The notes beneath the pieces were generated by a model. The model saw only the letters and a program-made list of their open reading frames with translations, was not told the origin of the DNA and did no database searches. From NCBI GenBank assembly GCA_001897305.1, contig MKSO01000001.1, forward strand, positions 360,001 through 392,000: a stretch of 32,000 bases of DNA, given 5' to 3'. Positions 6,098 to 32,000 of the stretch are shown here, one piece after another. Position numbers and translations under genes: made by a program. The stretch is from Candidatus Saccharimonadota bacterium (GTDB lineage Bacteria; Patescibacteriota; Saccharimonadia; Saccharimonadales; Saccharimonadaceae). Positions within the stretch are counted from its first letter, which is position 1, and each line of letters starts with the position of its first letter.

Positions 6098-6106
6098 TGG
6101 TATACT
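6098..6106 (+). promoter_or_regulatory. Extended -10 (TGgTATACT) about 30 nt upstream of the ABC operon start
   Basis: tggtatact at 6098-6106, ATG at 6137. This one would give a leadered transcript. Confidence 0.35.
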
Positions 6107-6136
6107 AACCATAAGAATATTAAGTGTAGAGCAAAC

Positions 6137-8910: not shown

Positions 8911-8994
8911 CTACCATGCCGTTGTTTGCATGATGGGGTAATGCGTAAGATTTGATTTTTTATTTTTTATGTATTTCTGATAAGCTAAGCCTAT

Positions 8995-9669
8995 ATGAAA
9001 AAACAAACAATACAAAAGAAAACTTCCTCGACGAAATCCATTAATGGTAAAAAAAGAAATCTAAAAATAGCAGCTCTAAGCGTGCTGGGTATATTTATAA
9101 TAGCTCAAGTAGCGTTTGATGTGTCAGTGCTGTGGCGGCACTTCACTTCCCTGCCTCAATCAGAGCCAGCTGTGGCAACGACGATTTTTAAATCAATTGA
9201 CGGCATGTACTCACCCTTACCGGTTGAAGCTAAAACAGGCACTTTGTATGCTTCGGCTGCTCGTCTTACTCTACCGGCGGATAATAGTAAGGATATTCTG
9301 TATTATTACAGTCCTGCCGATGGTACTGATTTGGCGGTTATTACTTTCACTACACGACAAATGATCGATACCGGAGAAAGCTCAGCGGTGAATGCGTATT
9401 TTACGACCTATGCAAAAAACTCCTTTACTTTTGATCGTGAAGGAAAAGCACTTCTCGCTTTTTTTGAGGAACTGCCGAGTTTGCAAGCCTGCGCGAGGGG
9501 TGTTCAGGTATATGAAGCGGCCCAGCCAGACGAAGACGGTTTTATTGCTCAAGGCACGAAACGTTTACAAGATGGCCGCACGCTCTATTTTTACACCGAA
9601 AAACAATGTAAGCAGCAGGCTCAGCTAAGTAGCCTTCTTGACGTTGTGAAGCGAGTGGAAAGCTTCTAA
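8995..9669 (+). CDS. Hypothetical membrane-anchored/secreted protein
   Basis: 224-aa ORF with a Lys-rich N-terminus, then the TM helix IAALSVLGIFIIAQVAF. No recognised motif. Confidence 0.55.
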   Translation: MKKQTIQKKTSSTKSINGKKRNLKIAALSVLGIFIIAQVAFDVSVLWRHFTSLPQSEPAVATTIFKSIDGMYSPLPVEAKTGTLYASAARLTLPADNSKDILYYYSPADGTDLAVITFTTRQMIDTGESSAVNAYFTTYAKNSFTFDREGKALLAFFEELPSLQACARGVQVYEAAQPDEDGFIAQGTKRLQDGRTLYFYTEKQCKQQAQLSSLLDVVKRVESF

Positions 9670-9677
9670 ACAAGCGC

Positions 9678-10285
9678 ATGACTGAGCACGTGTACGAGGC
9701 GGTTCTTATACTAGGCGGAGGTATTAATCTTGACGGCTCCCTGTCAGATGCCGCAAAGCAACAAGTGCAAAAAAGTGTCGAGGCGTATAACACTTTTTCT
9801 GTAAGGGTTTTTATTACTAGTGGTTTGTACGGCTATAAAGGGGTTGAAAAACCAATTACAAGCGAAGCAAAGGCGTATGCTCGCTACGCAGAAAGTATCG
9901 GATACCTTCAGCCGTAATATATACAGAAGAACATTCTCAAGAAACACTTGGTAATATTCTTTTTACAAAAATGGAAATCCTAATCCCGCTCGGCTTGACT
10001 CGCCTTATTGTCGTGCCGCAGGTTAATCACCTTACGGAACGTGTTGAGTATTTGTTGCAGAAAGTCCTGGGTCCTGGTTATGAGTGGAAGATTATTAGAC
10101 CAGCTGAAAACCTCGATGAACGAAACGTACTACGAGAAAAGAAATCGCTGGAAATGACCAGGCGCATTAATGATGCATTTCAAGATGGTGACCACCGGGC
10201 TATTTACAAAGGTCTTATGAAAAGCCACCCGGCGTACGGGGGCACGCTTTGGACGACGGAAGAGTTGCGGAAATTGCTGGGATAG
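9678..10285 (+). pseudogene. YdcF/ElyC-like DUF218 family gene split by a single-nucleotide frameshift near 9900-9902
   Basis: ORF 9678-9917 gives VLILGGGIN...VFITSG...SEAKAYARYAESIG and then stops. The frame of ORF 9971-10285, read upstream from 9902, gives IPSAVIYTEEHSQETLGNILFTK...LIVVPQVNHLTERV. Together these reconstitute the DUF218 pattern (GGG, sG, sEA, G-IP, E..S.nT..N, lVt..H..R). Confidence 0.7.
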
Positions 10286-10439
10286 GGTTGAATGGGTACA
10301 TAAAATAGAACTGATCCCCTGCCTACGTACGTATAGTGCACTATTAAGTTAAACTGAAACCATAATCCCCTTGACTCTATCGTCGCGACGCGACATACTT
10401 CTTAATCGCTCAACAAAGTAAAATCGCTAGTAAGTAAGA

Positions 10440-11171
10440 ATGTTTCATGAGATCTTAATACAGACATACATTTGGATAGGTTTCTTTGTGTTGATCGTCT
10501 TGCTTGTTATCAAATGGCAAGCAAATAAAAAGACGCCCGAGGATTCTAGTGTCTCTCCTCCAGAAAAAGTGAACACTATTCCGTCACAGGCTGATAAGGC
10601 CGAATTGGCTGTCGATGCAGCACTAAGAGGGCTCCAAGAAAACCGCTATTTCGTGTTTAGGGATTTAATAATACCATCATCATCTAAGAAAGTTGAACTT
10701 ACGCAAATTGATCACGTTCTAGTATGTAGGTTAGGGATATTTTGTATAGAGACAAAATCAAATCATGGATATATTTATGGCTTTACCCAAAGACAAGATT
10801 GGAAACAGTATTTGGGCTACAATGCAAAGCCATATACCTTTCATAGTCCTTATCGTCAAAATAAGCATCATGTCTCTTCGCTAGAGTTGTTGCTGGTCGA
10901 TAACCTAAAGGCGCCGATCCACTCTTATCTTGCCTTTCCTAATGCTAAGAAGGTTGTTATTAATGGTCGAATTGAAGACATGTCACCGGAAGGTGTTGTA
11001 TCTAAGATCAACAAGCACATGAATAGTATTTATGAACCTGCGGATATAGAGAGAATTGCAAAAATACTAGCCCATGCTGGAACGTTTCGTGAACAACTTC
11101 GCAACAAGCACGTGGATGATGTGAAAGCATTTATTGATGCTAAGGTAGCTGAGACATTAAAGCTTTCTTAG
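10440..11171 (+). CDS. NERD (nuclease-related domain) protein with an N-terminal TM helix
   Basis: YFVFRDLIIP...LTQIDHVLVCRLGIFCIETKSNHGYIYG...W.QYLG...SPYRQNKHHVSSLE matches the NERD core. TAGTAA lies 6 nt before the ATG. Confidence 0.75.
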   Translation: MFHEILIQTYIWIGFFVLIVLLVIKWQANKKTPEDSSVSPPEKVNTIPSQADKAELAVDAALRGLQENRYFVFRDLIIPSSSKKVELTQIDHVLVCRLGIFCIETKSNHGYIYGFTQRQDWKQYLGYNAKPYTFHSPYRQNKHHVSSLELLLVDNLKAPIHSYLAFPNAKKVVINGRIEDMSPEGVVSKINKHMNSIYEPADIERIAKILAHAGTFREQLRNKHVDDVKAFIDAKVAETLKLS

Positions 11172-11220
11172 TGATATTTAAGACGAACTGATCATATCAG
11201 CCCATCCTCAGCGTATCTTG

Positions 11221-11226
11221 TATACT
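11221..11226 (+). promoter_or_regulatory. -10 box (TATACT) exactly 6 nt before the ATG at 11233
   Basis: cttgtatact-agatag-ATG. Confidence 0.4.
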
Positions 11227-11232
11227 AGATAG

Positions 11233-11868
11233 ATGACTCGTTCAAAAAACCAACTGCTTGTAGCAACTGTACTAAGCGCCGTGGCTTTTCTTAGCCTTGC
11301 AACGGCGGTTGCGTTTAGGCTTACGCAGCCTTTTGATACGACTGCTTTGTTAAGAATTCACAGTGGCGCTACCCCGTATTGGGACTCATTTTTTATAACT
11401 ATTACGCAATTTGGTGGCAGTATTATAGTAACTATTGCCAGTATTCTTATTCTTGGAGTACTTTTGCTTTTAAAAAAGCGTCGCAAGGCCGTCTTTTTCA
11501 GCCTAGTTATGGTGGGTATGCTGCTATTGAATATTTTATTTAAAGACCTCATTGGCCGGCATCGCCCTGATGCAGCCGGATGGCTCATACCAGAAACGGG
11601 CATGTCGTTCCCTAGTGGCCATGCAACAGCGGTCATGGCTCTGGGGCTTGCGCTGTGTATTTTGCTATGGAATACATCATGGCGCTGGGCTGCTGTAGGG
11701 TGCGCAACTGCTTACATTGCAGTGGTGAGCTTTTCGCGTTTGTATCTGGGTGTGCATTACCCTTCTGATATTGTTGGCGGTTGGTTGTTGTCTATTGCAT
11801 GGGTGAGCGCGGTCGTACTGATAGTTCGTTTGCCATACCGGCACGTCGCCAAGGTTAATGAACCGTGA
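11233..11868 (+). CDS. PAP2 superfamily lipid phosphatase (undecaprenyl-diphosphate/phosphatidate phosphatase-like)
   Basis: All three PAP2 motifs are present: KDLIGRHRP, PSGH and SRLYLGVHYPSD. It is a multi-pass membrane protein. Confidence 0.85.
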   Translation: MTRSKNQLLVATVLSAVAFLSLATAVAFRLTQPFDTTALLRIHSGATPYWDSFFITITQFGGSIIVTIASILILGVLLLLKKRRKAVFFSLVMVGMLLLNILFKDLIGRHRPDAAGWLIPETGMSFPSGHATAVMALGLALCILLWNTSWRWAAVGCATAYIAVVSFSRLYLGVHYPSDIVGGWLLSIAWVSAVVLIVRLPYRHVAKVNEP

Positions 11869-12728
11869 AAACGATAATTCTATACAATCCAAACAGCACC
11901 GGCCCTAGTAAGGCAAACGCGCTTGCACTGGCAAAGCAGTTACGTGCTGCAGATATAACGGTTCAGGTAAAAGAAACAACTCACGCTGGCCATGCCGGTG
12001 AACTAGCGCAGGGGTATGCGAAGTCAAAAGAAGAGATAGCGCTCCTCTCGTCTAGCGGTGATGGCGGCTACCATGAATTAATTAATGGTGCGCTGAGCGT
12101 GCCGAATAGTAAGCTCATTGTTGGTGTTATTCCTTCTGGGAATGCTAACGATCATTACACGGCACTTGGCAGTGATGACCTAGCTGAAGCAATTATCGCC
12201 CGGCGAGTTAGTCGCATCGACACGATAAAACTTACGGGTACTCAGAAAGGACGGCCTTTTGTAAAGTACGCCCACTCTTATATTGGCATAGGCGTAACTG
12301 CTATTGCCGCTCGTCGTCTTACCGAAGAACGGCCAAGTGTTATGACCGAAAAATGGATTGTTCTTCATTCTCTCGTATCGTTTCGCTCTGTAAAGATTAA
12401 GGAAAACGGCAAGAACCACCGTTACAGCAGCTTGATATTTAGCACTATTCCTTTTATGTCAAAAGTTATTAAACTTGCGCAACAATCGTCCGTTACTGAT
12501 GGAAAGTTTGAAGTTACTCCAATTCGTTTTCGGTCAAAGCTCCGCCTTCTTCTCTATCTAGTTACAGCTGCAACGGTAGGTTTACACCATGGCATTTCTC
12601 GTAAGTTATATCGCTTTCGTACTATCCGCCCGCTCGATGTGCAGATTGATGGAGAGGTCTATAAACTCGACGGTAACTCGGTTGTCAGTATTGAAGCGCA
12701 AAAACAGAATTTACTTTGTATTTTGTAG
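11865..12728 (+). CDS. Diacylglycerol kinase catalytic-domain lipid kinase (YegS/BmrU-like)
   Basis: IILYNPNS...SSGDGGYHELINGAL...GVIPSGNANDH. The GTG start overlaps the PAP2 TGA stop (GTGA at 11865-11868). Confidence 0.8.
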   Translation: MKTIILYNPNSTGPSKANALALAKQLRAADITVQVKETTHAGHAGELAQGYAKSKEEIALLSSSGDGGYHELINGALSVPNSKLIVGVIPSGNANDHYTALGSDDLAEAIIARRVSRIDTIKLTGTQKGRPFVKYAHSYIGIGVTAIAARRLTEERPSVMTEKWIVLHSLVSFRSVKIKENGKNHRYSSLIFSTIPFMSKVIKLAQQSSVTDGKFEVTPIRFRSKLRLLLYLVTAATVGLHHGISRKLYRFRTIRPLDVQIDGEVYKLDGNSVVSIEAQKQNLLCIL

Positions 12729-12756
12729 ACACCGCTAGTATAGCGGTGTCTTTGTA
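12727..12756 (+). terminator. Intrinsic terminator after the lipid kinase gene
   Basis: agacaccgcta-gta-tagcggtgtct is a perfect 11-bp stem followed by a T-rich tract (tttgt). Confidence 0.6.
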
Positions 12757-12826
12757 AGCTACCCATCTTTATTAAGCAAAGGTGTGGTATTAATGTTGTA
12801 AAGTAGTCCTTTTTACGAAAAACTGC

Positions 12827-12855
12827 TTGTAATAAATAACAGCTCGCTCTACTAT
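12827..12855 (+). promoter_or_regulatory. Canonical sigma70-type promoter (TTGTAA, 17-nt spacer, TACTAT) for the gene at 12879
   Basis: -35 at 12827-12832, 17-nt spacer, -10 at 12850-12855. The Shine-Dalgarno sequence aggaaaag lies at about 12868-12875. Confidence 0.45.
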
Positions 12856-12878
12856 TAACGCAGAAATAGGAAAAGTGT

Positions 12879-13412
12879 ATGGGTGAACTTATAGAGCTTG
12901 GTGTATATCGTCGCAAAGAAGCCACAAAAACAGTCCAGCGATTAAATGCAATTTCTGAGATTCAACAAGTCAGTAATGGCGTGTATGTAAGCAGCGCCGC
13001 GTTCCCAAGCTACGACGTTCTTTCGAGCGGCGACTATTTAAGTGCCGCACAATTTGCGAACGCCGGTAACAGGCTTCGCCGTGATCACGAGTACGGTTAT
13101 GGAGTAATGAGCAGTATTGCTTTAAAGATGGTGCAGGCGTCCGCTGAATTCGGCCCATCGTCCGGAGAGACCGGTGTATTCCCTGTGAACTCTTATGATG
13201 ACGTCTATGCCTGGATACAGAAATTCACACAAGACCCAGCTTATATTCAAGGAGGTAGCCGCGGTCGCGTACTGCTCGATCGACATCTTGTGCATAGCGC
13301 CTTGTTAGAATCCGAAGGCGTCACCCCTATTAAGCCCGTTCCAGTTCCCGTGCTTAATGAGGGTGAACGCCAAGTCGTACGGCAACTATTCCGCCAAGAA
13401 TCTCATCTGTAA
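12879..13412 (+). CDS. Hypothetical protein (soluble, no recognised motif)
   Basis: 177-aa ORF with its own promoter-like and SD-like sequences. It is convergent with the MFS gene. Confidence 0.5.
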   Translation: MGELIELGVYRRKEATKTVQRLNAISEIQQVSNGVYVSSAAFPSYDVLSSGDYLSAAQFANAGNRLRRDHEYGYGVMSSIALKMVQASAEFGPSSGETGVFPVNSYDDVYAWIQKFTQDPAYIQGGSRGRVLLDRHLVHSALLESEGVTPIKPVPVPVLNEGERQVVRQLFRQESHL

Positions 13413-24077: not shown

Positions 24078-24698
24078 TTAATTCCCAAGCTCTTTGAGTT
24101 TGGTGGCTGATGTAACCAGTCCAAACCCTTGCTGACCAGGTTCTAATATCCGACCGTGAGATAAAGAGCCAAGGATGACCGGTTCAAACCCTAGGTCCGA
24201 CACGATAGCTGCGACATTTGTGGTGGCCTGGTTGCTATCGGAAGCTAGGGCTAATGCTTTTCGTTCATCCGAACCCGCGGGTCGGGCCCAATCTCGTAAT
24301 TCATGATAGCCCATATGGCTAAAAGCTTTAACTACCCTACTCTCTGGCAGGAATTGCTGAATAGCTTCGCTTGAAGACAGTGTTTCGGGGATAATTTCCT
24401 CGCGTGGTCCGTCAACTTCTGGCCAGTGGTTTGTTGCATCAATAACAATTTTACCTTTGAGTGATTCGACTGGTAGCTGGCGGAATTTACCCAAAGGAAT
24501 AGCCAGGATAATCACCTCTGCCCACTGCGCAACATCCTTGGTCGTCATGGCAATAGCCCCAGGGGTAAGTACCTTCACCGATAGGGCTATTTTTTGAGTG
24601 TCGCCAGAGCCAGATACGGCTACTTCATAGCCTGCTTTTAGGGCAAGTTGCGCTAAGGTAATACCTAGTTTACCAGCCCCTATGATGCCGAGTTTCAT
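24078..24698 (-). CDS. NADP oxidoreductase, coenzyme-F420-dependent family (NpdG/F420_oxidored-like Rossmann protein)
   Basis: MKLGIIGAGKLGITLA dinucleotide-binding loop, about 200 aa, with the overall pattern of the PF03807-type family. The start overlaps the upstream LLM stop (ATGA-type overlap at 24695-24698). Confidence 0.7.
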   Translation of the reverse strand: MKLGIIGAGKLGITLAQLALKAGYEVAVSGSGDTQKIALSVKVLTPGAIAMTTKDVAQWAEVIILAIPLGKFRQLPVESLKGKIVIDATNHWPEVDGPREEIIPETLSSSEAIQQFLPESRVVKAFSHMGYHELRDWARPAGSDERKALALASDSNQATTNVAAIVSDLGFEPVILGSLSHGRILEPGQQGFGLVTSATKLKELGN

Positions 24699-25750
24699 TG
24701 GCTTAGAAGTTCCTTTACCATGGGAATAACTTTCGTGCCGTACAGCTCAACCATTTTCAAGCGCGCTTCAGCACTAACAGGGCCACCGCCATACACCATA
24801 TCGAAGGTGCGGGCATCAAGCGCTTTCATGGCTTTGGCTATCTTTTTAGCAACCGTTTCCGGAGAGCCGACATATAGTGAACCGTGTTCAATTTCGTATA
24901 AGAATTGCTCGCGGGTGTAAGGTGGCCATCCGCGGGTCTTGCCGATGCGGTCCCAGCTGGTTTTGAAGGCTGGCCAAGCTAGCTTACGGGCTTCTTCGTC
25001 GGTTTCGGCAATAAAGCCTGGTGAGTGCATGCCGACCGGATGAGCGGTGGTGCCAAGGTCTTCGGCGGCTTGTCGGTACAGCTCAACATACGGCGCAAAA
25101 CGGTCTGGGGCGCCGCCAATGATCGCTAGAATAAGCGGAAAGTTATAACGAGCAGCCCGAATAACAGATTCCGGTGACCCGCCGACGCCAATCGCGACAC
25201 CGAGCCCTTTTTCGGTTTTAGGGTAGACGTCGGCATTCTTCAATGCAGCACGTGTTTTACCCTCCCAAGTCACTGGCTCTTCTGGAAGTAGTTTTGAAAA
25301 AAGTTCAACTTTCTCTTCAAAAAGTTCGTTGTAGTCACGCAAATCGTAGCCAAATAATGGAAAAGATTCAGTAAATGAACCGCGGCCCAAAATAACCTGG
25401 GCGCGGCCATTAGAAAGTGCATCAACTGTAGCGAAGCGTTCGAATACGCGTACCGGGTCATCCGAACTTAGTACTGTGACGGCCGATGAGAGGGTGATGT
25501 TTTTGGTGCGTGTTGCAATACCCGCGAGGACGGTTTCTGGGCTTGAAATAGAATAATCTGGGCGATGGTGTTCACCAAGCCCGATGCGGTTAATGCCCAG
25601 CTTGTCGGCCAGAATAGCTTCCTCTACTACTTGTCGAATCGCCTCGGGGTGTGACATGAGCGTACCATCGGCTTTTGTAGGCAGATCACCAAAGCTGTCG
25701 AGCCCAAATAAGTACGTATCTGAAGTGGCTTTTTTTGATTGTTTTGTCAT
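24695..25750 (-). CDS. LLM-class (luciferase-like) flavin-dependent oxidoreductase
   Basis: LGINRIGLGEHH...SSPETVLAGIA..T..I.L.SAVTVLS..DPVRV.E.FATVD.LS.GR. The start is placed at the ATG at 25750 (MTKQSKK), which has the SD gaggga about 5 nt upstream. The track ORF starts 4 codons earlier. Confidence 0.8.
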   Translation of the reverse strand: MTKQSKKATSDTYLFGLDSFGDLPTKADGTLMSHPEAIRQVVEEAILADKLGINRIGLGEHHRPDYSISSPETVLAGIATRTKNITLSSAVTVLSSDDPVRVFERFATVDALSNGRAQVILGRGSFTESFPLFGYDLRDYNELFEEKVELFSKLLPEEPVTWEGKTRAALKNADVYPKTEKGLGVAIGVGGSPESVIRAARYNFPLILAIIGGAPDRFAPYVELYRQAAEDLGTTAHPVGMHSPGFIAETDEEARKLAWPAFKTSWDRIGKTRGWPPYTREQFLYEIEHGSLYVGSPETVAKKIAKAMKALDARTFDMVYGGGPVSAEARLKMVELYGTKVIPMVKELLSQ

Positions 25751-25941
25751 AGCTTCCCTCATTGTATCATTTCAATAATTACTATACTTTATATAGTATA
25801 CACGAAAGCGCAGATAGTTGTATACTATAAATGATATAAATCCGCATATCAGTCTGGCCTCGTAGCTCAAGGCACTTACAGATCGACGGTATCAATCGAA
25901 CCTTACACGAGCTGGTCGAATAACATAGTAAGGAGATCACT

Positions 25942-26149
25942 ATGGTTGATCGTGAATCAAAGCGTCTCGAAAAAGAAAAGCGCAACCGCGAAGAGTAAGA
26001 ACGCTGGCAGGAAATGTCAAAGGCTCACTGGAGCCATTGGCGCACCTGGGGTTCTTGGTTTAGCTGGGGCTCACCTATTGGCTTAGGCCTTTGGTTTGTG
26101 CTCATGGCTGCCGCAACTGCTATTCTTATAGTTGCTATTAAGCTCTAGG
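25942..26149 (+). other. Small ORF pair in one frame: an 18-codon ORF with the strongest SD in the window, an in-frame TAA, then a 44-50 codon ORF encoding a Trp-rich single-TM peptide
   Basis: aaggag, 7 nt, then ATG at 25942: MVDRESKRLEKEKRNREE-TAA(25996-25998)-ERWQEMSKAHWSHWRTWGSWFSWGSPIGLGLWFVLMAAATAILIVAIKL, with the stop at 26147-26149. A terminator follows. Confidence 0.3.
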
Positions 26150-26309: not shown

Positions 26310-26984
26310 ATGAAACTCCTGGTTGTTGATGACAATAAAAGGTTGGCTGATCGGGTCAAGCAACAGCTAGTGAAAAACTATCTCGTCGATGTTGCGCATA
26401 CCGGTGAGCAAGCACTCGAGTATGTGCTGCATACAGACTATGCGGTTATCACTCTCGACTTAGGGTTGCCAGATATGTCCGGTGAGGACGTATGTAGGCG
26501 ATTACGTGCTATGGGCATTCAAGCACCTGTGCTTATTCTTAGTGGCGAAAGTGCTATGGATACACGTGTTCGCCTCCTTGAATCGGGTGCGGACGATTAT
26601 GTCATCAAGCCGTTTCATGTCGACGAGTTAAAGGCGCGCATTACAGCCCTTGCCCGACGACCACCACTTCGTAAGGGCAAAAGAGTCTTGATGCATCGAG
26701 GGTTGCTGATAGATATAGACGAACGAAAAGTATACCGCAATGGTCAAGAGATTGATCTGCGCCGTAAAGAGTTCGATATCTTAGAGTACCTAGTGGCAAA
26801 TAGCGGACGGACGGTCACTCGTGAAATGATACTTAACCACGCCTGGAGTACAGATAAGGTCAGTTGGGATAGTACGGTTGACGTTCATATCAAGCGATTA
26901 CGCGATAAGTTGGATAGTGCGTCGCAGCCATCGCTTATTAAAACGGTTTACGGTCTCGGGTATAAGGTCGAAGCATCCGAATAG
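26310..26984 (+). CDS. OmpR/PhoB-family response regulator
   Basis: Receiver domain (LVVDD, phospho-acceptor in ITLDLGLPDMSG, VIKPF) plus a winged-helix output domain (LRRKEFDILEYL..., VDVHIKRLRDKL, YGLGYKV). The SD is aaggaaagg. Confidence 0.9.
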   Translation: MKLLVVDDNKRLADRVKQQLVKNYLVDVAHTGEQALEYVLHTDYAVITLDLGLPDMSGEDVCRRLRAMGIQAPVLILSGESAMDTRVRLLESGADDYVIKPFHVDELKARITALARRPPLRKGKRVLMHRGLLIDIDERKVYRNGQEIDLRRKEFDILEYLVANSGRTVTREMILNHAWSTDKVSWDSTVDVHIKRLRDKLDSASQPSLIKTVYGLGYKVEASE

Positions 26985-27010: not shown

Positions 27011-27127
27011 ATGATTGATATTCTCCATACCATTCTGACCGACGCTACTGTGCGTGATAGCAAAGCTGTTGAAGCTCGGCTTTCAGCTGACAGTGCAGCC
27101 GGAACACCTTGGTTTGATGCTGCGTAG
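27011..27127 (+). CDS. Unannotated 38-codon ORF between the response regulator and the kinase; candidate signalling-peptide precursor
   Basis: ATG at 27011 is preceded by a purine-rich gaaagga. The peptide is MIDILHTILTDATVRDSKAVEARLSADSAAGTPWFDAA, with a single Trp (27110-27112) five residues from the C-terminus. It ends at a TAG 3 nt before the kinase ATG. It is below the ORF-track length cutoff. Confidence 0.35.
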   Translation: MIDILHTILTDATVRDSKAVEARLSADSAAGTPWFDAA

Positions 27128-27130: not shown

Positions 27131-28537
27131 ATGAGTAAAAAGCGAACGACAGAAGCGCCCTCACGACTTGCCCGCTGGATTGTGGGGCGGCTTTCTGTTG
27201 TTTCGCTGTCAGACGGTTCGCCTCTTATTACGAAGATTCTATTAAATGCCACACTGATTGCTATTGTCTTGCTCTTTCTGTTGTTATGCGTAAGCTACTT
27301 TCTGCTTGGTAATGAAAATGTAGCGCCGCGGCTTGTTCTGGTGATTGGTGCTGTGATGTATCTTTGTGGTGTCGAATGGCTATACCGCACTGGAAATGTG
27401 CGCCGTGCGGCAAAGTTCCTAATTGCATTTTATTTATTTCTGTCAACGATGGTACTTGCTGGCTGGGGTATTAATGCACCCATTGGTATTCTGACCCTAG
27501 GGTTTGTCATCTTGTTGACGGGTATTATGCTCGGTGCTCGCTCTATTATACCTTCTACTATCATCACTATCGCTGTACTACTGGCAATTCAGGTGAGTGG
27601 AACGATTGGTATATTGAAGCCCGATCTTTCTTCGCTTTCAAAACCTTCTTCTTACTTCGATGTAGTGAGTTATACGGTTGTATTTAGCGTATTTGCGCTG
27701 GTATCGTGGCTGTCTGGTCGGCAAATGGAGGAAGCTTTGCAGCGGGCGTTAGAGGCAGAGGCGGCGTTGCAGAAGGAAAAGGATTTACTAGCCGATCGGC
27801 TCAAGGAGCAAACGATCAAACTTAGAGAATCCCAACTTGCAGAAATGAACCAGTTGTACCGCTTTGCCGAACTTGGTCAGCTTAGTACGGTAACCATGCA
27901 TGATCTCGCAAACCACTTAAATGTGCTTGCACTTGATCTTGATGATATCCAGCAGCGATCACATAGCTCCGAGGCTCTTGAACGTGCAAAAGAAAGTTTA
28001 TCGTATTTGGATGCAATGGTAGCCGAGGTACGGCAGCAAATATATGAGGACGCTTCTCCTCGTGAATTTGACGCCGTTGCGCTCATAAAAGACATGGCAC
28101 CGCTGTTTAGTAAACTGACACAACGTAAGAGCGTTCGGTTAGATTATACGGTCTCGCCTCGGAAGGCGACGGTGAAAATAATGGGCGATCCACTCCGTTT
28201 GGCTCAGGTTGTAAAGGTGTTGGTGACAAATGCTATTGAAGCCTACGACCATTCAAGCCTACCTGATAAACGAGTGGCCATTACAATAACGAAACAATCC
28301 TCAAAAGCGAGAATAAGCGTCTGTGACTGGGGCGTCGGTATCACAAAACGGCAACGGACGCGCATTTTTCATGCTTTTGAAAGCACCAAACCCAACGGTA
28401 TGGGCATAGGGCTTTTTATCGCCAAAAAAATGGTAGAAACACATTTTAATGGCACCTTGAAATTGGCTCGAGCGGCGGACTGCACCGAATTCATTATTGA
28501 ATTACCCCTTCAATTACAAAGGAAAACACACTCATGA
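27131..28537 (+). CDS. Membrane sensor histidine kinase (six TM helices with short loops, coiled-coil linker, HisKA + HATPase_c)
   Basis: Six hydrophobic helices lie within aa 35-200. The linker is EEALQRALEAEAALQKEKDLL. The H-box is ELGQLSTVTMHDLANHLNVL, the N-box VTNAIEAY, G1 DWGVGI and G2 GMGIGLFIAKKMVE. The TGA stop overlaps the next ATG (ATGA at 28534-28537). Confidence 0.85.
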   Translation: MSKKRTTEAPSRLARWIVGRLSVVSLSDGSPLITKILLNATLIAIVLLFLLLCVSYFLLGNENVAPRLVLVIGAVMYLCGVEWLYRTGNVRRAAKFLIAFYLFLSTMVLAGWGINAPIGILTLGFVILLTGIMLGARSIIPSTIITIAVLLAIQVSGTIGILKPDLSSLSKPSSYFDVVSYTVVFSVFALVSWLSGRQMEEALQRALEAEAALQKEKDLLADRLKEQTIKLRESQLAEMNQLYRFAELGQLSTVTMHDLANHLNVLALDLDDIQQRSHSSEALERAKESLSYLDAMVAEVRQQIYEDASPREFDAVALIKDMAPLFSKLTQRKSVRLDYTVSPRKATVKIMGDPLRLAQVVKVLVTNAIEAYDHSSLPDKRVAITITKQSSKARISVCDWGVGITKRQRTRIFHAFESTKPNGMGIGLFIAKKMVETHFNGTLKLARAADCTEFIIELPLQLQRKTHS

Positions 28538-30111
28538 TGACCCTTCAAGCAACCCTTCGCTCTTTGGGCAAAAAGGCCTATGGACCCGATATTTCTACAG
28601 AAGATAAAATACGACTCCTTTTACTTTTTAACGAACTTCCCGAGTATCACGAGCAGGCGGTCTGGTTGTTCGATCATCTTTCTTCTGGTGAGTGGACATG
28701 GCTTAGTAGCGATGATATTTACTTGGTTTGCCTACGACTTTTGGCTCTCTATCGCCACAATGCAGAAAGTATTGACGGTGAACACTTAGCGCTTCTTGCA
28801 AAGCGCCTTATAGAAGCAGAAAAAACGGTCGGCGGCCCATATAAACATAAGGCGCACTCTGCCCTGCAGACAAATGCAGTGATAGCGCAGCTAATGCGCG
28901 CGCTCGGCTCTTCCCTGCCGAATGTCGAGCAATTCGTCCAGCAAGAAGCCGAAGAGCATCGGCTTGTGGTGGCAACACCGGAAAACGGCTGGCTTTTAGC
29001 TTGGCCGGAACGAATTGTTACCGTTGCGGTGACTCGTCAACTACAAACCGTGGATACCGATTCGTTGCATCAAATAGTCGCAAAGCTATGTCTTCGCTTA
29101 CGACCGAGTTTGTCAAAGAAGCAAGGCGCTGTACGTGACTCTATAGATGATGCTAGCTCGGTCTCAGACCAGGTGGTTCAAGAAAGCCTGACCTACCCTG
29201 AGCAACTAAGGAGTGGTTTTGATGAAATAGTTCAAAAAATTATTAACGCTGACCATTCCGGTGAAATCCGGTTGTTATCTTCCTTTTTTGTCGAGTCGCT
29301 TAGTAAAGAGATGCAGGCATTCTGGCACGATGAAGACATACAGGCTCTTAATAAAGCTACCCTTCATACCTGGGTAGCCTACACAATATATGATGATTTT
29401 ATTGACGAAGAGGGCTCACCTCGGTTACTTCCAGTAGCTAATACGAGCCACCGTAAAGCGCTCGCGCAGTACTATGCTCAGGCCTATGATAATGATGATG
29501 CTCATGTGCTTATCGAAGAAACCTTTGACCGTATGGATGCTGCTAACGCATGGGAGCTGCAGTATTGTCGCTTTCCGGTAGATGTGCGCACTATAATAAT
29601 CGGTACCCTCCCTGATTACAAAGACAATACTGTTCTAGCGGAACGCGCTGGCGCGCACATTCTTGGTCCGTTGCTTATTGCTCTGCGCGACACCACGATA
29701 TCTCGGCAGCAGTACTCTCATCTTCGTCGTGGCCTAGAGCAGTACCTTATTGCGCGTCAGCTTAACGATGACATTCATGACTGGGTGAAGGATCTGCGAG
29801 CTGGCCAATGTAGCCCCGTGGTACGTTTTTTACTTCAAGAAGCGAACATAGAAGCTGGTTCTTATGCTAGTGACGAATTAATTGAATCACTGCAAAACAC
29901 CTTTTGGCAGTCGGGACTTGAGAAGTTCAGCTTAGAGATTCTCGAGCATACAAAAGCTGCTGAAGGATATCTGCGTAAGAGCAATGTGATAAAAGATGAT
30001 AGTATTTTTATTCACAAAACACTCTTGCCTATTGAGCAATCTGCGCGAAAGGCAATGACTAAGCATCGAAAAGAAAAAAGTTTTCTCGCATCGTATGTAA
30101 GCGAGGCTTAA
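28534..30111 (+). CDS. Two-domain protein: an uncharacterised N-terminal helical domain (about 270 aa) plus a C-terminal trans-isoprenyl-diphosphate-synthase-like (class I isoprenoid synthase fold) domain
   Basis: First Asp-rich motif AYTIYDDFIDEEGSPRLLPVAN (DDFID at 29392-29406). Second is IARQLNDDIHDWVKDLRAGQCSPVV (DDIHD at 29767-29781), 125 residues later. Both resemble polyprenyl synthase FARM/SARM contexts (hDDviDe...P..N; fQ..DDi.D...Dl..Gk.t.P). Confidence 0.6.
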   Translation: MMTLQATLRSLGKKAYGPDISTEDKIRLLLLFNELPEYHEQAVWLFDHLSSGEWTWLSSDDIYLVCLRLLALYRHNAESIDGEHLALLAKRLIEAEKTVGGPYKHKAHSALQTNAVIAQLMRALGSSLPNVEQFVQQEAEEHRLVVATPENGWLLAWPERIVTVAVTRQLQTVDTDSLHQIVAKLCLRLRPSLSKKQGAVRDSIDDASSVSDQVVQESLTYPEQLRSGFDEIVQKIINADHSGEIRLLSSFFVESLSKEMQAFWHDEDIQALNKATLHTWVAYTIYDDFIDEEGSPRLLPVANTSHRKALAQYYAQAYDNDDAHVLIEETFDRMDAANAWELQYCRFPVDVRTIIIGTLPDYKDNTVLAERAGAHILGPLLIALRDTTISRQQYSHLRRGLEQYLIARQLNDDIHDWVKDLRAGQCSPVVRFLLQEANIEAGSYASDELIESLQNTFWQSGLEKFSLEILEHTKAAEGYLRKSNVIKDDSIFIHKTLLPIEQSARKAMTKHRKEKSFLASYVSEA

Positions 30112-30115: not shown

Positions 30116-31618
30116 CTAATAGCCTGCAAAATAATCGGTCGTAACGCGCTGAATACCACGTGTCCGTAGCTGATAGGCGGCGCTTTGTACGAATGGCGTC
30201 GGCCCGGAAATATAGGCATCGCGCTGGCTATGGTCCGGGATGAGCTGTAAGAGTTGATCAAAGTCAATGCGACTACCTTTGAGGAATTGCCACGAGTTAG
30301 GAGCGCGCACTGGACGGTCCAGGCTAATCACTACCCCTCGGCAACTTGCAAGAATTTCCTGGTATGCAAATTCCTGCCCACTACTTACTGCGTACACGAT
30401 CACAATATCACGATCTTTATGTGACGCTTGCAAAGAACGGAGCTGAGAAATGAACGGCGTAATGCCGATGCCCCCTGCAATAAAAAGGAGTGGCCGTTTG
30501 GTGTCTTTGGGAAGAATGAAATCCCCAGAACAGTGCGTTACCTGAAGCGAGACTTCTTTATTCAGGTTTGCGAGAGCTTTCTTAAAGGTGCTTGAAGGTT
30601 GGTAAAAACGTATTCCGAGAGAAATTTCTTGGCTACCAGGAGCGGAAGTAATACTAAAACTCCTACGCTCGCCACGCAAATCGGCACGAGCATGTGGTAG
30701 GCTGAGTTCAATGTACTGACCTGCTTCATAGGTCATAGCCCGTGACGGCTTAAAGAAATATTCAAAGCTCGTTGGTGTTAATTGTTCTTTGCGCAAGAAC
30801 GTCAGTTGGGTAGCCGCGCGCCTTGCTAGGATTGCGGCTACAAGGTTGCCAACCAGCAGGGCGATGGCCGGCGTGGTTTGGATTGGGCCAATAGTAATAG
30901 GCACTGCAACCAATACGGCAACCACTACAGTAACGACATAAATCTGCCATTTACGGGGCGGCAGCGTGAGTGGTTCTACCAGCATGACGCCAACAATAAA
31001 GAGTAGCGGCCACGATAAAAGCAATCCAAGGCTCTGCGCGAAACTTGCCCCGTAGCTAATGAGTTGAATAAGGACGAGCGGAATGGTTATAGCCAGGAAA
31101 ATACCCGCCACTGCGAACCGTTTAGTTTGATAAAGCGCCATTGCTCCAACGAGCGCAACGATGGGCGCGAGTACTGGGGTGGCTACCCACCAACTCGCTC
31201 CCCCAAGTCCGGCAATGCTAATAACAACGACTGCCAGTGCTGCGGGGTTAAAAATATGCCGCCCCTTCCATACAACAACATACTTTGATGCCCCGGCAAT
31301 AAGCCCGGCGAAGAAAAGAATTGCTAGGCCCGAGAGGTTTGTCGTAGGCGTAATAATGAGCGTAAGAATTACGCTAGTAATAAGCGACGAGTCTATTTGG
31401 CTATGTACACCAAATAGAAGACTCGTTAGCCAGCTTCCTAGCCATGTGGCACTACAAGCAACCAGTAGGCTTATACATAGTTCAAGAGGGGTGACGCTTA
31501 ATAATCCAAAGCAGGCAAGCACAACGGCGGCTAACCAAATACCAAATAGGCCAAACAAGATACCCTTATACATCGAGATTGGTCGTAGTATGGCGTTGAT
31601 ACGTTCCAAAATGTTCAT
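30116..31618 (-). CDS. Fusion protein: RnfD/NqrB-like polytopic membrane domain plus a C-terminal ferredoxin-NADP reductase-type FAD/NAD(P)-binding domain
   Basis: The N-terminal half has about 8 TM helices with HIFNPAALAVVV and VMLVEPLTLPP (compare RnfD/NqrB FNPA and ..TDPVT.P). The C-terminal half has RRSFSITSAP (RxYS-type FAD motif) and LLFIAGGIGITPFISQL (NAD(P) motif). The start overlaps the ApbE stop (TAATG). Confidence 0.7.
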   Translation of the reverse strand: MNILERINAILRPISMYKGILFGLFGIWLAAVVLACFGLLSVTPLELCISLLVACSATWLGSWLTSLLFGVHSQIDSSLITSVILTLIITPTTNLSGLAILFFAGLIAGASKYVVVWKGRHIFNPAALAVVVISIAGLGGASWWVATPVLAPIVALVGAMALYQTKRFAVAGIFLAITIPLVLIQLISYGASFAQSLGLLLSWPLLFIVGVMLVEPLTLPPRKWQIYVVTVVVAVLVAVPITIGPIQTTPAIALLVGNLVAAILARRAATQLTFLRKEQLTPTSFEYFFKPSRAMTYEAGQYIELSLPHARADLRGERRSFSITSAPGSQEISLGIRFYQPSSTFKKALANLNKEVSLQVTHCSGDFILPKDTKRPLLFIAGGIGITPFISQLRSLQASHKDRDIVIVYAVSSGQEFAYQEILASCRGVVISLDRPVRAPNSWQFLKGSRIDFDQLLQLIPDHSQRDAYISGPTPFVQSAAYQLRTRGIQRVTTDYFAGY

Positions 31619-32000
31619 TATGAAAACACTCCTTCTCTAAAATAGTCAGAACAGTCGTAACTACCATCTTTAAATATACGTAGATATTCATAAGTATAGC
31701 GTGTTGGTATTGTTTCTGGTGGTACAAAAAACAGAGCCGTTGCTATCCCGTCGGCAATCATGGTACTGTCCGCTACAACCCAGGTGGCAATAATATCTTG
31801 GGCTGGTTTCGCAGTCCGCGCGTTAATAACGTGGTGCCATCCACCCCATGCTCTGCCTGTTGTTGCGGAGGCACAAAGCGCTTTATTGCGTAACTCAATG
31901 ACCCCAATTACTTTTGTTTTGTCGGTCGGATCTTGCAGGCCGATTGTTTCAAACGTCGTTGGGTCTGAGCTGGCCTGACGCACGTCACCGCTACCATCAA
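31618..32000 (-). CDS. apbE: ApbE-family FAD:protein FMN transferase, C-terminal part only (the N-terminus lies beyond the right edge)
   Basis: ...GRAWGGWHHVINARTAKPAQ...VVADSTMIADGIATALF is the ApbE C-terminal signature (G..hHiidP.tG.P; A.aDalaTA.f). The frame stays open upstream of the track's GTG through position 32000. Confidence 0.8.
   Translation of the reverse strand, partial: DGSGDVRQASSDPTTFETIGLQDPTDKTKVIGVIELRNKALCASATTGRAWGGWHHVINARTAKPAQDIIATWVVADSTMIADGIATALFFVPPETIPTRYTYEYLRIFKDGSYDCSDYFREGVFS

What the first reader, a model, noticed from the sequence alone, without database searches (positions are those of the whole stretch)
28534..30111. Divergent two-domain isoprenoid-synthase-fold protein lacking the usual RRG substrate-binding residues
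The C-terminal half aligns by eye to polyprenyl synthase landmarks. AYTIYDDFIDEEGSPRLLPVAN corresponds to the usual h-DD-x-x-D-x(3-4)-RRG-x-P-x-x-N, and LNDDIHDWVKDLRAGQCSPVV corresponds to FQ-x-x-DD-x-x-D...D-l-x-x-G-K-x-T-x-P. However, the conserved RRG after the first motif is replaced by PRL, and the GK-x-T by GQ-C-S. Changes of this kind are expected for an enzyme that no longer condenses IPP, for example a prenyltransferase acting on a non-isoprenoid acceptor, or a terpene synthase. The N-terminal 270 residues (Trp-rich, predicted helical, e.g. SGEWTWLSSDDIYLVCLRLLALY, EKTVGGPYKHK) match nothing I can name. They could be a substrate-recognition domain. Isoprenoid metabolism beyond undecaprenyl phosphate is not expected in reduced-genome bacteria.
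Basis: partly seen in the sequence, partly recalled or inferred. Interest (0 to 1): 0.7.

Follow-up and report, generated by a model that had tools for sequence, protein, structure and literature searches.

The report
Saccharibacterial tryptophan-peptide prenyltransferase signalling cassette
The 525-residue protein is most likely an enzyme that attaches a lipid (prenyl) group to a tryptophan of the 38-residue peptide encoded two genes upstream; with the sensor kinase and regulator beside it, this looks like a previously undescribed ComX/PalX-like peptide-signalling system that is widespread in the ultrasmall Saccharibacteria.

Summary
The ORF (28534-30111, +, 525 aa) and all quoted motifs are real and conserved. 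AlphaFold2 (pLDDT 92) with Foldseek puts residues ~198-525 in the trans-isoprenyl diphosphate synthase fold. Pfam, NCBIfam and PDB sequence searches find nothing. A profile-profile comparison shows the domain is a homolog of PalQ, the characterised peptide tryptophan prenyltransferase of Paenibacillus (99% probability, E 9.6e-18, 273 columns, both Asp-rich motifs and the Trp-recognition Gln aligned). The N-terminal ~197 residues are a truncated remnant of a class II terpene cyclase domain. Long-form relatives keep the full domain with DDLDDT (E 6.6e-17 to drimenol synthase); here the catalytic Asp is Tyr63. The gene ends a tightly packed operon: OmpR-type regulator, 38-aa ORF, six-TM histidine kinase, enzyme. 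Kinase and regulator lie upstream in 66 of 70 relatives with enough flanking DNA. The small ORF (76 unique sequences) has an invariant Trp near the C-terminus, and it stays next to the enzyme in the three loci that lack the kinase and regulator. Best reading: a ComQXPA/PalPXQ-like prenyl-peptide signalling system in Saccharibacteria (272 GTDB species, about 1,300 clusters). I found no published description. Biochemistry is untested.

The parts
26310..26984 (+). Response regulator (OmpR type: receiver plus winged-helix Trans_reg_C), first gene of the cassette
   Evidence: Pfam Response_reg 8.9e-24 and Trans_reg_C 4.7e-26. Found upstream of the enzyme, with the kinase, on the same strand in 66 of 70 related loci that have at least 3.3 kb of upstream DNA.
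27011..27127 (+). 'X': 38-aa precursor peptide MIDILHTILTDATVRDSKAVEARLSADSAAGTPWFDAA, with a conserved leader and a C-terminal core containing Trp34
   Evidence: An ORF of 34-52 aa lies between RR and HK in essentially all related loci. In 76 unique sequences W34 is 76/76, R15 75/76, L9 74/76, P33 68/76. It is retained directly upstream of the enzyme gene in L010, L014 and L015, which lack HK and RR. No Pfam or NCBIfam family matches.
27110..27112 (+). Codon of Trp34 of X, the predicted prenyl acceptor
   Evidence: Invariant in 76/76 unique peptides; coordinate checked. Its role as acceptor is inferred from PalX, ComX and StheX.
27131..28537 (+). Histidine kinase: about six TM helices in residues ~29-196 with very short loops, then a coiled coil, H-box MHDLANH (H257, 27899-27901) and HATPase_c
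   Evidence: Pfam HATPase_c 2.9e-17; hydropathy analysis and H-box. The start lies 3 nt after the X stop, and the stop overlaps the enzyme's ATG (ATGA).
28534..30111 (+). 'Q': the 525-aa two-domain enzyme that is the subject of the finding
   Evidence: ORF. AF2 model pLDDT 92, pTM 0.86. Large family of unannotated homologs.
28534..29124 (+). N-terminal domain (residues 1-197): truncated, degenerate class II terpene cyclase-like alpha/alpha-hairpin domain
   Evidence: AF2 of the domain alone: pLDDT 87. Foldseek hits are not significant, but the top ones are nearly all (alpha/alpha)6 toroids, including MstE, SHC and TED. It aligns to the middle of the ~320-aa N-domain of long-form relatives, whose profile hits the drimenol synthase cyclase domain at E 6.6e-17.
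28711..28725 (+). D60-D61-I62-Y63-L64: remnant of the class II cyclase motif DDLDD. The general-acid Asp position is Tyr63.
   Evidence: Alignment A7. The motif aligns to FPDDLDTT of AsDMS, and the PDB D333N mutant marks that Asp. Coordinates checked.
28819..28875 (+). E96-x3-G100-G101-P102-Y103 ... N114: the only invariant motif of the N-domain, kept in both short and long forms
   Evidence: Invariant in A1, A2, A6 and A7. Absent from AsDMS in the aligned region. Function unknown.
29125..30108 (+). C-terminal domain (residues 198-525): trans-IPPS-fold, PalQ-like prenyltransferase domain
   Evidence: Foldseek against PDB: 3aqb_B E 1.4e-4, target TM 0.69, with all top 50 hits trans-IPPS-superfamily structures, including the indole prenyltransferase Ord1. 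hhalign against the PalQ family: probability 99.0, E 9.6e-18, 273 columns. Negative controls E 0.098 and 0.066.
29389..29406 (+). First Asp-rich motif (FARM) Y286-D287-D288-F-I-D291: predicted Mg2+/prenyl-diphosphate site
   Evidence: D287 and D291 are invariant. They align with PalQ D89, D90 and D93.
29758..29805 (+). Second motif Q409-L-N-D412-D413-I-H-D416-W417-V-K-D420-L-R-A-G424: SARM with upstream Gln, the predicted indole-recognition site
   Evidence: Q409, D412, D416, D420 and G424 are invariant. The motif matches PalQ Q197-xx-D200-D201-xx-D204-W205-xx-D208-L-xx-G residue for residue. The Gln plus the first SARM Asp are described as the Trp-recognition determinant of trans-IDS-like prenyltransferases (PMC13290415).

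Best explanation
The protein is a peptide tryptophan prenyltransferase ('Q') of the trans-IDS-like, PalQ-related kind. Its C-terminal domain would bind GPP, FPP or GGPP through Mg2+ at the YDDFID motif. Gln409 and Asp412 would position the indole of Trp34 of the 38-aa peptide X encoded two genes upstream, and the prenyl group would be transferred to that Trp. The leader of X (conserved ILTD..AR..VE..L) would then be removed, and the lipidated C-terminal fragment released. The released fragment would be sensed within the membrane by the six-TM histidine kinase of the same operon, which signals to the OmpR-type regulator. That makes the cassette a ComQXPA/PalPXQ-like autoinducer circuit. The N-terminal domain descends from a class II terpene cyclase domain. 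That domain is intact in most relatives, which would cyclise the attached prenyl chain as ChrPC and NctPC do. In this protein it is truncated and has Tyr at the catalytic Asp, so this enzyme probably prenylates only. Shown: fold, homology to PalQ, motif conservation, operon structure, X-Q co-occurrence. Inferred: the acceptor residue, the donor length, processing and export, and the signalling role.
For: Fold: AF2 pLDDT 92; Foldseek top 50 hits are all trans-IPPS-superfamily structures, probability 1.00. Homology: C-domain profile against 48 real PalQ-family proteins gives probability 99.0, E 9.6e-18, 273 columns, FARM to FARM and SARM to SARM, with clean negative controls. PalQ is shown experimentally to prenylate the Trp of PalX and sits beside a histidine kinase (PMC10853753). 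The Gln upstream of the SARM plus the first SARM Asp is the reported Trp determinant (PMC13290415), and both are invariant here. No RRG, GGKRxR or PF00348 signal. Context: RR-X-HK-Q lie on one strand with gaps of 26 nt, 3 nt and an ATGA overlap. HK and RR are upstream in 66/70 relatives, down to 24% identity and with unrelated flanks. X has an invariant Trp (76/76) and a variable tail. X-Q pairs persist without HK and RR. The HK has a polytopic, loop-poor sensor. Saccharimonadia are reported to retain C10-C20 prenyl diphosphate synthesis (PMC9166423).
Against: There is no biochemical evidence. Identity to PalQ is only ~14%, detectable only profile to profile. PalQ needs a strictly C-terminal Trp, whereas Trp34 of X is followed by four residues (0-7 in most relatives), so acceptor geometry must differ or trimming must come first. 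X has no NHLP leader, and no protease or exporter is conserved in the cassette. The SARM is fully intact, unlike ComQ and StheQ, so a second metal or diphosphate site cannot be excluded. The D412/D416/D420 spacing also resembles a terpene-synthase NSE/DTE triad. Saccharimonadia reportedly lack C5 precursor synthesis, so donor supply depends on scavenging. Faster divergence of Q and the HK sensor than of the RR fits pherotype evolution but is also typical of any two-component system.
Confidence: 0.7

Rival explanations
1. Same chemistry, different biology. Q prenylates X, but the product is not a self-sensed pheromone. It could be a RiPP lipopeptide acting on the host bacterium or on competitors (membrane-active or antimicrobial), or a membrane-anchored peptide. 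The HK and RR would then regulate production or immunity.
For: Three loci keep X-Q without HK and RR, so the pair can function without the sensor. Prenylated Trp peptides made with PalQ gain membrane activity (PMC13290415). The biological roles of PalX and StheX are themselves unknown. Cultivated Saccharibacteria live on host cells, as stated in paper abstracts listed.
Against: HK and RR are linked to X-Q in 66/70 loci, with translational coupling. The HK sensor is a polytopic, loop-poor membrane domain typical of peptide-pheromone receptors. No immunity or exporter genes are conserved.
Confidence: 0.17
2. Q is a terpene synthase or cyclase that makes a small-molecule terpenoid from free prenyl diphosphate, using a class I-like alpha domain plus, in long forms, a class II domain, as in bifunctional diterpene synthases. 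The small ORF would be unrelated, for example a regulatory or leader peptide.
For: DDxxD plus a D412-x3-D416-x3-D420 triad resembles DDxxD plus NSE/DTE. Weak Terpene_syn_C_2 hits occur in 3 members (best E 0.002) and a Terpene_synth_C hit in 1. Long forms carry an intact DxDD class II domain. PalQ relatives are annotated 'terpene synthase' in UniRef.
Against: All these Pfam hits are below threshold. The only significant relative, PalQ, carried the same annotation yet is experimentally a Trp prenyltransferase. This reading does not explain the invariant Trp peptide that follows Q even when HK and RR are lost. The window's class II domain lacks its catalytic Asp.
Confidence: 0.08
3. Q is a divergent chain-elongating prenyl diphosphate synthase, for example supplying a polyprenyl tail for a respiratory quinone, given the nearby reductase, ApbE and cytochrome oxidase genes.
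For: The closest solved folds are hexaprenyl, solanesyl, GGPP and FPP synthases. Both Asp-rich motifs are intact. Downstream genes in this genome and in L001/L092 encode an FNR-like reductase, ApbE and COX1-3.
Against: There is no PF00348 hit in the protein and only one sub-threshold hit among 69 members. RRG and the N-terminal basic IPP-binding motif are absent. The downstream genes are convergent and not conserved next to Q in other lineages. The significant homology is to PalQ, not to IspA.
Confidence: 0.03
4. Q is no longer catalytic. It would be a structural or regulatory partner of the kinase, for example a peptide-binding accessory protein.
For: The N-domain has clearly decayed. Translational coupling to the HK would also suit a stoichiometric partner.
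Against: All metal-binding and Trp-recognition residues of the C-domain are invariant across more than 1,000 clusters, which argues for retained catalysis.
Confidence: 0.02

Closest known systems
PalQ / PalX / PalP of Paenibacillus alvei (trans-IDS-like C-terminal Trp prenyltransferase, RiPP precursor, histidine kinase; Miyata et al. 2023, PMC10853753)
   Same: The catalytic domains are homologous (hhalign probability 99, E 9.6e-18). The invariant pattern is identical: DDxxD, and Q-xx-DD-xx-DW-xx-DL-xx-G. Neither family is detected by Pfam. Both sit next to a short precursor with a conserved Trp at or near the C-terminus and next to a histidine kinase.
   Different: About 14% identity. PalQ is single-domain (~312 aa), while this protein carries an extra N-terminal cyclase-derived domain. 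PalX is an 80-aa NHLP-type precursor with a terminal Trp (TIGR03793), whereas X is a 38-aa peptide of a new leader family with an internal Trp. PalP is a convergent 653-aa HisKA kinase with no adjacent RR, whereas here RR-X-HK-Q is co-directional. Phylum is Bacillota versus Saccharibacteria (CPR).
ComQXPA quorum-sensing locus of Bacillus subtilis and other Firmicutes; StheQ/StheX of Sphaerobacter (ComQ family, IPR033965)
   Same: Same logic: an IPPS-fold enzyme prenylates an internal Trp near the C-terminus of a short ribosomal peptide; a polytopic membrane histidine kinase and a response regulator are encoded in the same locus; the pheromone tail is variable.
   Different: ComQ and StheQ belong to the polyprenyl_synt lineage and have lost the SARM (pseudo-SARM NDxxx, single Mg2+). 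This family keeps the SARM intact and does not hit PF00348. Gene order is A-X-P-Q rather than Q-X-P-A. The OmpR-type regulator shown here also differs from ComA, which from my own knowledge is NarL/LuxR-type; I did not test that. This enzyme has an extra N-terminal domain.
ChrPC and NctPC: bifunctional prenyltransferase-cyclase enzymes of RiPPs with polycyclic isoprenoid moieties (Hubrich et al. 2024, known here only through the review PMC13290415)
   Same: [quoted passage not shown] Long-form relatives of this protein have exactly such a pair of domains with an intact DDLDDT.
   Different: The review places ChrPC and PalQ in separate sequence clusters. In this family the cyclase domain is N-terminal. 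In the window's protein it is truncated to ~197 aa with Tyr at the catalytic Asp, so cyclisation is probably lost. Linkage to a two-component system is not reported for ChrPC or NctPC in the text I could read.
Canonical trans-isoprenyl diphosphate synthases (FPPS, GGPPS, HexPPS; PF00348) and the indole prenyltransferase Ord1
   Same: Same all-alpha fold, and the closest solved structures. Two Asp-rich motifs lie on helices ~125 residues apart.
   Different: No significant sequence similarity. RRG and the IPP-binding basic residues are missing. The genomic context points to a peptide acceptor.

Membership tests
PalQ-type trans-IDS-like peptide Trp prenyltransferases | All-alpha trans-IPPS fold | tested here: met
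   AF2 pLDDT 92. Foldseek top 50 hits are all trans-IPPS-superfamily structures, probability 1.00, target TM up to 0.69.
PalQ-type trans-IDS-like peptide Trp prenyltransferases | Significant sequence homology to PalQ and its relatives | tested here: met
   hhalign A3 against A5: probability 99.0, E 9.6e-18, 273 columns. Controls E 0.098 and 0.066.
PalQ-type trans-IDS-like peptide Trp prenyltransferases | FARM DDxxD, and SARM preceded by a conserved Gln (Q-xx-DD-xx-D) | tested here: met
   D287, D288, D291; Q409, D412, D413, D416 (plus W417, D420, G424), invariant or nearly so and aligned to PalQ D89/D90/D93 and Q197/D200/D201/D204/W205/D208.
PalQ-type trans-IDS-like peptide Trp prenyltransferases | Adjacent precursor peptide with a conserved Trp at or near the C-terminus | tested here: met
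   X lies between RR and HK or directly upstream of Q. W34 is 76/76.
PalQ-type trans-IDS-like peptide Trp prenyltransferases | Acceptor Trp is the very last residue, and the precursor has an NHLP leader | tested here: not met
   The Trp is followed by 0-7 residues in most peptides (4 in the window). X matches no NHLP model, while the PalX control does (TIGR03793, 1.2e-17).
PalQ-type trans-IDS-like peptide Trp prenyltransferases | Demonstrated Trp prenylation activity | not testable with these tools
   Needs an enzyme assay or co-expression with MS.
ComQ family (IPR033965, within PF00348) | Membership of the polyprenyl_synt sequence family | tested here: not met
   No PF00348 hit for the protein. 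One of 69 members hits at E 0.017, below threshold.
ComQ family (IPR033965, within PF00348) | FARM present but SARM degenerated to pseudo-SARM (NDxxx) | tested here: not met
   The SARM is intact, NDDIHD, with invariant D412 and D416. The ComQ and StheQ definition comes from the bioRxiv paper 10.64898/2026.08.29.745113.
ComQXPA-type locus | Enzyme, Trp peptide, membrane histidine kinase and response regulator encoded together | tested here: met
   RR-X-HK-Q in the window. HK and RR are upstream of Q in 66/70 relatives. The order and the regulator type differ from comQXPA.
Chain-elongating trans-IPPS | IPP-binding residues: RRG after FARM, N-terminal GGKRxR, KT, GK | tested here: not met
   The family consensus after FARM is EGxPxxLPxAN. 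There is no conserved basic cluster N-terminal to FARM, and the site reads GxxS rather than GKxT.
Class II terpene cyclase (monodomain, AsDMS/MstE/SHC-like), i.e. the C domain of P-C fusions | Complete (alpha/alpha)6 toroid homologous to known cyclases | tested here: not met
   Long forms meet it: profile against the AsDMS cyclase domain gives E 6.6e-17. The window's N-domain covers only the middle ~60% of the toroid, and its Foldseek hits are non-significant (best E 0.2).
Class II terpene cyclase (monodomain, AsDMS/MstE/SHC-like), i.e. the C domain of P-C fusions | DxDD general-acid motif | tested here: not met
   The window has D61-I62-Y63-L64 where long forms have D-L-D-D (DDLDDT). At least 31/85 loci and 14/128 database proteins keep the motif, all with long N-domains.
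Class I terpene synthases | Match to Terpene_synth_C or Terpene_syn_C_2, and DDxxD plus an NSE/DTE triad | tested here: inconclusive
   Only sub-threshold Pfam hits in 3+1 of 69 members. D412/D416/D420 have NSE/DTE-like spacing, but the same residues are the PalQ SARM pattern.

The most novel reading that the evidence does not exclude
Saccharibacteria, and some other Patescibacteria, possess a dedicated and widespread cell-cell signalling system based on prenylated Trp peptides. In the majority long-form lineages the prenyl group would also be terpene-cyclised. The peptides would be made by a cyclase-prenyltransferase fusion enzyme from a new leader-peptide family and sensed by a co-encoded polytopic histidine kinase. 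This would be the first peptide pheromone circuit described in the candidate phyla radiation, and a new, very large clade (about 1,300 clusters at 50% identity) of RiPP terpenoid-peptide biosynthetic enzymes.
Probability: 0.5. Interest if true: 0.88.

Novelty: new variant of a known kind. Interest (0 to 1): 0.8.

Why it matters
Patescibacteria (CPR) are described in the papers listed as a very large, mostly uncultivated part of bacterial diversity. [quoted passage not shown] How they sense each other or their hosts is largely unknown, and I found no paper linking ComQ-, PalQ- or StheQ-type enzymes or ComX-like peptides to them. A conserved four-gene cassette that makes and senses a lipidated peptide, kept in reduced genomes across at least 272 GTDB species, would give a concrete, testable handle on density or host-contact signalling in these organisms. 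For natural-product enzymology it extends peptide Trp prenyltransferases to a new phylum. It defines a new leader-peptide family and a new domain order (class II cyclase followed by a PalQ-like prenyltransferase), and it shows a natural series from intact to decayed cyclase domains. It also explains an annotation blind spot. The enzyme has no Pfam, NCBIfam or PDB sequence hit, and gene callers sometimes miss the 38-aa ORF altogether.

Tried and rejected
- **Direct sequence searches:** Pfam, NCBIfam and PDB phmmer on the protein gave nothing relevant. The only PDB hits were spurious armadillo-repeat matches to the low-confidence linker at residues 198-257. The full-length family profile against PDB sequences also found nothing.
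- **hhalign against a single E. coli IspA sequence:** E 0.057, with the query's first motif paired to IspA's SARM, so it could not be used for residue mapping.
- **Iterative profile search with the C-domain:** it returned only unannotated family members in the 120 rows listed, so the link to PalQ had to be made another way. I rebuilt a noisy query from an OCR'd supplementary figure. The hits used afterwards are real database proteins, not the OCR text.
- **N-domain on its own:** no significant Foldseek hit. Its identity came only from the long-form relatives.
- **Primary ChrPC/NctPC paper (PMC11484575):** not held, so homology to ChrPC is untested.
- **Conserved exporter:** rejected. Only about three distinct loci have a full-length ABC exporter nearby.
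- **Functional link to the downstream reductase, ApbE and cytochrome oxidase genes:** rejected. They are convergent and absent from the cassette's neighbourhood in other lineages.
- **Promoter and terminator scans:** not above shuffled expectation.
- **Differential divergence of RR, HK and Q:** judged too unspecific to count as evidence for pherotypes.
- **Not done:** I could not inspect model coordinates or model an X-Q complex, and I did not verify that this genome encodes an FPP/GGPP synthase.

Full report
**Observation**

Direct searches find nothing useful. There is no Pfam or NCBIfam family, and PDB sequence hits are limited to spurious armadillo-repeat matches in a low-confidence linker.

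The protein has many homologs, all annotated 'hypothetical' and nearly all from Candidatus Saccharibacteria/Saccharimonadia or other Patescibacteria:
- 76 in the first search.
- 376 with a C-domain profile.
- 272 among GTDB species representatives.
- 1,326 clusters at 50% identity with E <= 1e-30 in a 1.84-billion-protein library.

Across 69 aligned members the invariant residues are E96, G100, G101, P102, Y103 and N114 in the N-terminal part. In the C-terminal part they are W280, D287, D291, E341, P360, I406, Q409, D412, D416, D420 and G424. The two Asp-rich motifs are therefore real and under strong selection. RRG and GKxT are indeed absent.

**C-terminal domain (residues ~198-525)**

AlphaFold2 with the family alignment gives a confident model (pLDDT 92, pTM 0.86). 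Foldseek against the PDB returns only trans-isoprenyl diphosphate synthase-superfamily structures in the top 50. These include hexaprenyl, solanesyl, GGPP and FPP synthases, the indole prenyltransferase Ord1 and the prenyltransferase core of variediene synthase. All have probability 1.00, the best E is 1.4e-4, and target TM-scores reach 0.69 over ~350 columns.

Sequence-level similarity to canonical synthases is absent. The literature describes a small set of 'trans-IDS-like' enzymes that prenylate tryptophan in ribosomal peptides: ComQ, StheQ, PalQ and the P domain of ChrPC (PMC10853753; bioRxiv 10.64898/2026.08.29.745113; PMC13290415).

I retrieved real PalQ-family proteins and aligned 48 of them. 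I then compared that profile with a 50-member profile of this family's C-domain. The result was probability 99.0%, E 9.6e-18, over 273 columns spanning nearly the whole domain:
- YTIYDDFlD aligns with FFIQDDlMD.
- ARQLNDDxHDWxxDLxxG aligns with TLQMxDDWaDWeeDLxxGS.

Every invariant residue of the PalQ motifs (D89, D90, D93, Q197, D200, D201, D204, W205, D208) has its counterpart here (D287, D288, D291, Q409, D412, D413, D416, W417, D420). Negative controls were clean: this C-domain against an unrelated all-alpha profile gave E 0.098, and PalQ against IspA gave E 0.066.

The review identifies the Gln just upstream of the SARM, together with the first SARM Asp, as the determinant of indole recognition. 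Both are invariant in this family. PalQ itself has no Pfam hit, which explains why this family looks like dark matter.

**Genomic context**

The enzyme gene is the last of four co-directional genes:
- An OmpR-type response regulator (26310-26984).
- A 38-codon ORF (27011-27127).
- A histidine kinase (27131-28537).
- The enzyme.

The gaps are 26 nt and 3 nt, followed by an ATGA stop/start overlap. The same arrangement appears in relatives at 61%, 39%, ~35% and even 24% identity whose flanking genes are completely different. Of 70 related loci with at least 3.3 kb of upstream DNA, 66 have both kinase and regulator upstream on the same strand.

The small ORF is present in essentially all of them. 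In 76 unique sequences of 34-52 residues, Trp34 is invariant (76/76). Arg15 (75/76), Leu9 (74/76), Pro33 (68/76) and Thr10 (63/76) are highly conserved, and the residues after the Trp vary in sequence and number.

The three loci that lack kinase and regulator (L010, L014, L015) still carry the peptide ORF immediately upstream of the enzyme gene. The peptide-enzyme pair is thus the tightest association, as it is for StheX/StheQ and PalX/PalQ. The peptide belongs to no known leader family, whereas the PalX control is recognised as NHLP.

The kinase has about six closely spaced transmembrane helices in its first ~200 residues with almost no extracytoplasmic loops. A coiled coil, the H-box MHDLANH and HATPase_c follow. 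It resembles PalP only in the generic kinase core.

**N-terminal domain**

Its length varies from ~100 to ~330 residues across the family, while the C-domain stays at 320-330. In long-form members (~640-660 aa, the majority of the best library hits) it carries a nearly invariant PYPDDLDDTFCAL and QW-like Q..DG(S/G)(F/W) repeats.

A profile of these domains matches the class II terpene cyclase domain of drimenol synthase AsDMS at E 6.6e-17 over almost its full length. DDLDDT aligns to FPDDLDTT, and a PDB entry is the D333N mutant of that Asp. The profile also matches squalene-hopene cyclases at 4e-6 and 5.6e-5, and MstE weakly (AsDMS mutant description). Weak Pfam hits to SQHop_cyclase, TED and Prenyltrans fall in the same region.

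Most of the family is therefore a fusion of a class II terpene cyclase with a PalQ-like prenyltransferase. By function this corresponds to the ChrPC and NctPC 'P-C' enzymes, which prenylate a peptide Trp and then cyclise the prenyl chain (PMC13290415).

The window's protein is a reduced version. Its 197-residue N-domain (AF2 pLDDT 87) aligns to the middle of the toroid and lacks the first hairpin and the last ~100 residues. It reads D61-I62-Y63-L64 where the long forms have D-L-D-D, so the general-acid Asp is Tyr63. On its own it has only non-significant Foldseek matches, although these are almost all (alpha/alpha)6 toroids, including MstE and SHC.

At least 31 of 85 loci, and 14 of 128 database proteins from the first two searches, keep the cyclase motif, always with a long N-domain. 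The only N-domain residues invariant in both long and short forms are E96, GGPY (100-103) and N114, which are not part of the AsDMS alignment. Their retention after loss of the catalytic motif suggests a second role, such as leader-peptide docking or an interdomain contact. That is inference only.

**Mechanism proposed**

Shown:
- The fold.
- Homology to an experimentally characterised Trp prenyltransferase.
- Conservation of the donor-binding and indole-recognition residues.
- Loss of the IPP-binding residues.
- Operon structure.
- Obligate pairing with a Trp peptide.
- Association with a membrane-embedded sensor kinase and a regulator.

Inferred:
- Q transfers a C10-C20 prenyl group to Trp34 of X.
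- The conserved leader directs recognition and is then removed.
- The lipidated C-terminal fragment is released and sensed by the kinase.
- The regulator controls target genes, probably including the operon itself.

Donor supply is plausible. Saccharimonadia are reported to encode C10-C20 isoprenoid synthesis but not C5 synthesis (PMC9166423). FPP is in any case an intermediate on the way to undecaprenyl phosphate (my own knowledge). No isoprenoid genes lie in the window.

**Caveats**

- PalQ requires a strictly terminal Trp, whereas Trp34 of X is internal, as in ComX, StheX and ChrPC substrates.
- No protease or exporter is conserved.
- The SARM is intact, unlike in ComQ and StheQ.
- Similarity to PalQ is remote.
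- The signalling role, as opposed to an antimicrobial or host-directed lipopeptide, rests on context alone.
- The faster divergence of Q and the kinase sensor relative to the regulator fits pherotype evolution but does not discriminate.

**Comparison with known systems and novelty**

The enzyme works like PalQ and ComQ, and its C-domain is a distant member of the PalQ lineage. It is not a member of the ComQ/PF00348 family or of the chain-elongating synthases. The locus works like ComQXPA but differs in gene order, regulator type and peptide family. The long-form architecture parallels ChrPC and NctPC, but with the cyclase at the N-terminus.

I found no paper connecting any of these systems with Saccharibacteria or Patescibacteria. 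I therefore rate it a new variant of a known kind. It has a new phylum, a new leader family, a new domain order, a decayed-cyclase subtype, and integration with an OmpR-type two-component system.

**Source organism**

The exact protein occurs on many metagenomic contigs, including ones of 0.9 Mb and over 1 Mb from JGI samples 3300003403 and 3300009070. The organism has been sampled repeatedly, and material for follow-up should be identifiable.

**Verdict**

Confidence that Q is a peptide Trp prenyltransferase acting on X is about 0.7. Confidence that the cassette is a self-sensing pheromone circuit is about 0.5. Interest is 0.8.

Noticed in passing
window 26014-26148 (+); L001 3418-3624: A small ORF just upstream of the response regulator encodes a strikingly Trp-rich peptide followed by a hydrophobic helix (MSKAHWSHWRTWGSWFSWGSPIGLGLWFVLMAAATAILIVAIKL). 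It is conserved almost exactly in the 61%-identity relative, where it has a longer N-terminus. It is absent upstream of the cassette in more distant loci. Function unknown; a possible second Trp-bearing substrate or membrane partner.
   Followed up: partly
window 30116-31618 (-), 31618-31983 (-); L001 7579-13578; L092/L093: Convergent with the enzyme gene is a 500-aa protein with a polytopic membrane N-terminus fused to an FNR-like FAD/NAD-binding reductase, followed by ApbE (flavin transferase). In the relatives, cytochrome oxidase subunits COX2, COX1 and COX3 come next. This is aerobic-respiration-type machinery in a Saccharibacterium. It is not conserved next to the cassette in other lineages.
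   Followed up: partly
window 24078-25762 (-): A luciferase-like (F420/flavin-dependent) monooxygenase lies adjacent to an F420_oxidored-type NADP oxidoreductase. This is an unusual redox pair for a reduced genome.
   Followed up: no
window ~2000-13000: This stretch has lower G+C (0.41-0.45 against 0.47-0.52 elsewhere). It carries DUF2726, an RNase_T exonuclease fused to GIY-YIG, a NERD nuclease-related protein, an ABC/FtsX pair, several ORFs with no family, and one weak crAss 'muzzle' hit. It may be a horizontally acquired defence or mobile island.
   Followed up: no
window 11233-12728 (+): A PAP2-family phosphatase is directly followed by a DAGK_cat lipid kinase. These are candidates for polyprenyl- or lipid-phosphate recycling, which bears on how this organism handles isoprenoid lipids.
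   Followed up: no
L092 1451-1598 versus L093 1478-1594: In two assemblies of the same organism the 38-aa X ORF was called as a gene in one (L093) and missed in the other (L092). Public annotations will under-report this peptide family.
   Followed up: yes
L005 7556-9322 (= L023), L032, L051: A full-length ABC_membrane+ABC_tran exporter lies next to the enzyme gene in a few lineages only. It may be a lineage-specific exporter for the modified peptide.
   Followed up: partly
L043 3584-3742; L019; L030: Some X peptides have much longer tails after the Trp (up to ~18 residues, e.g. ...APWFDKAVVVDPAPSAAASQ). This suggests C-terminal trimming or a different mature form in those lineages.
   Followed up: no
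Family-wide: loci L027, L037, L044, L059 and others versus the window, L001, L002, L009: Peptide sequence class tracks enzyme class. Loci whose enzyme keeps the cyclase motif mostly have ...QQA(A/V/I)A(x)PW(A/S)... or hydrophobic ...SAFV.T(V/L)... cores, while short-form loci mostly have ...(S/T)AG(x)PW(F/Y/W)(D/N).... This fits co-evolution of substrate and enzyme.
   Followed up: partly
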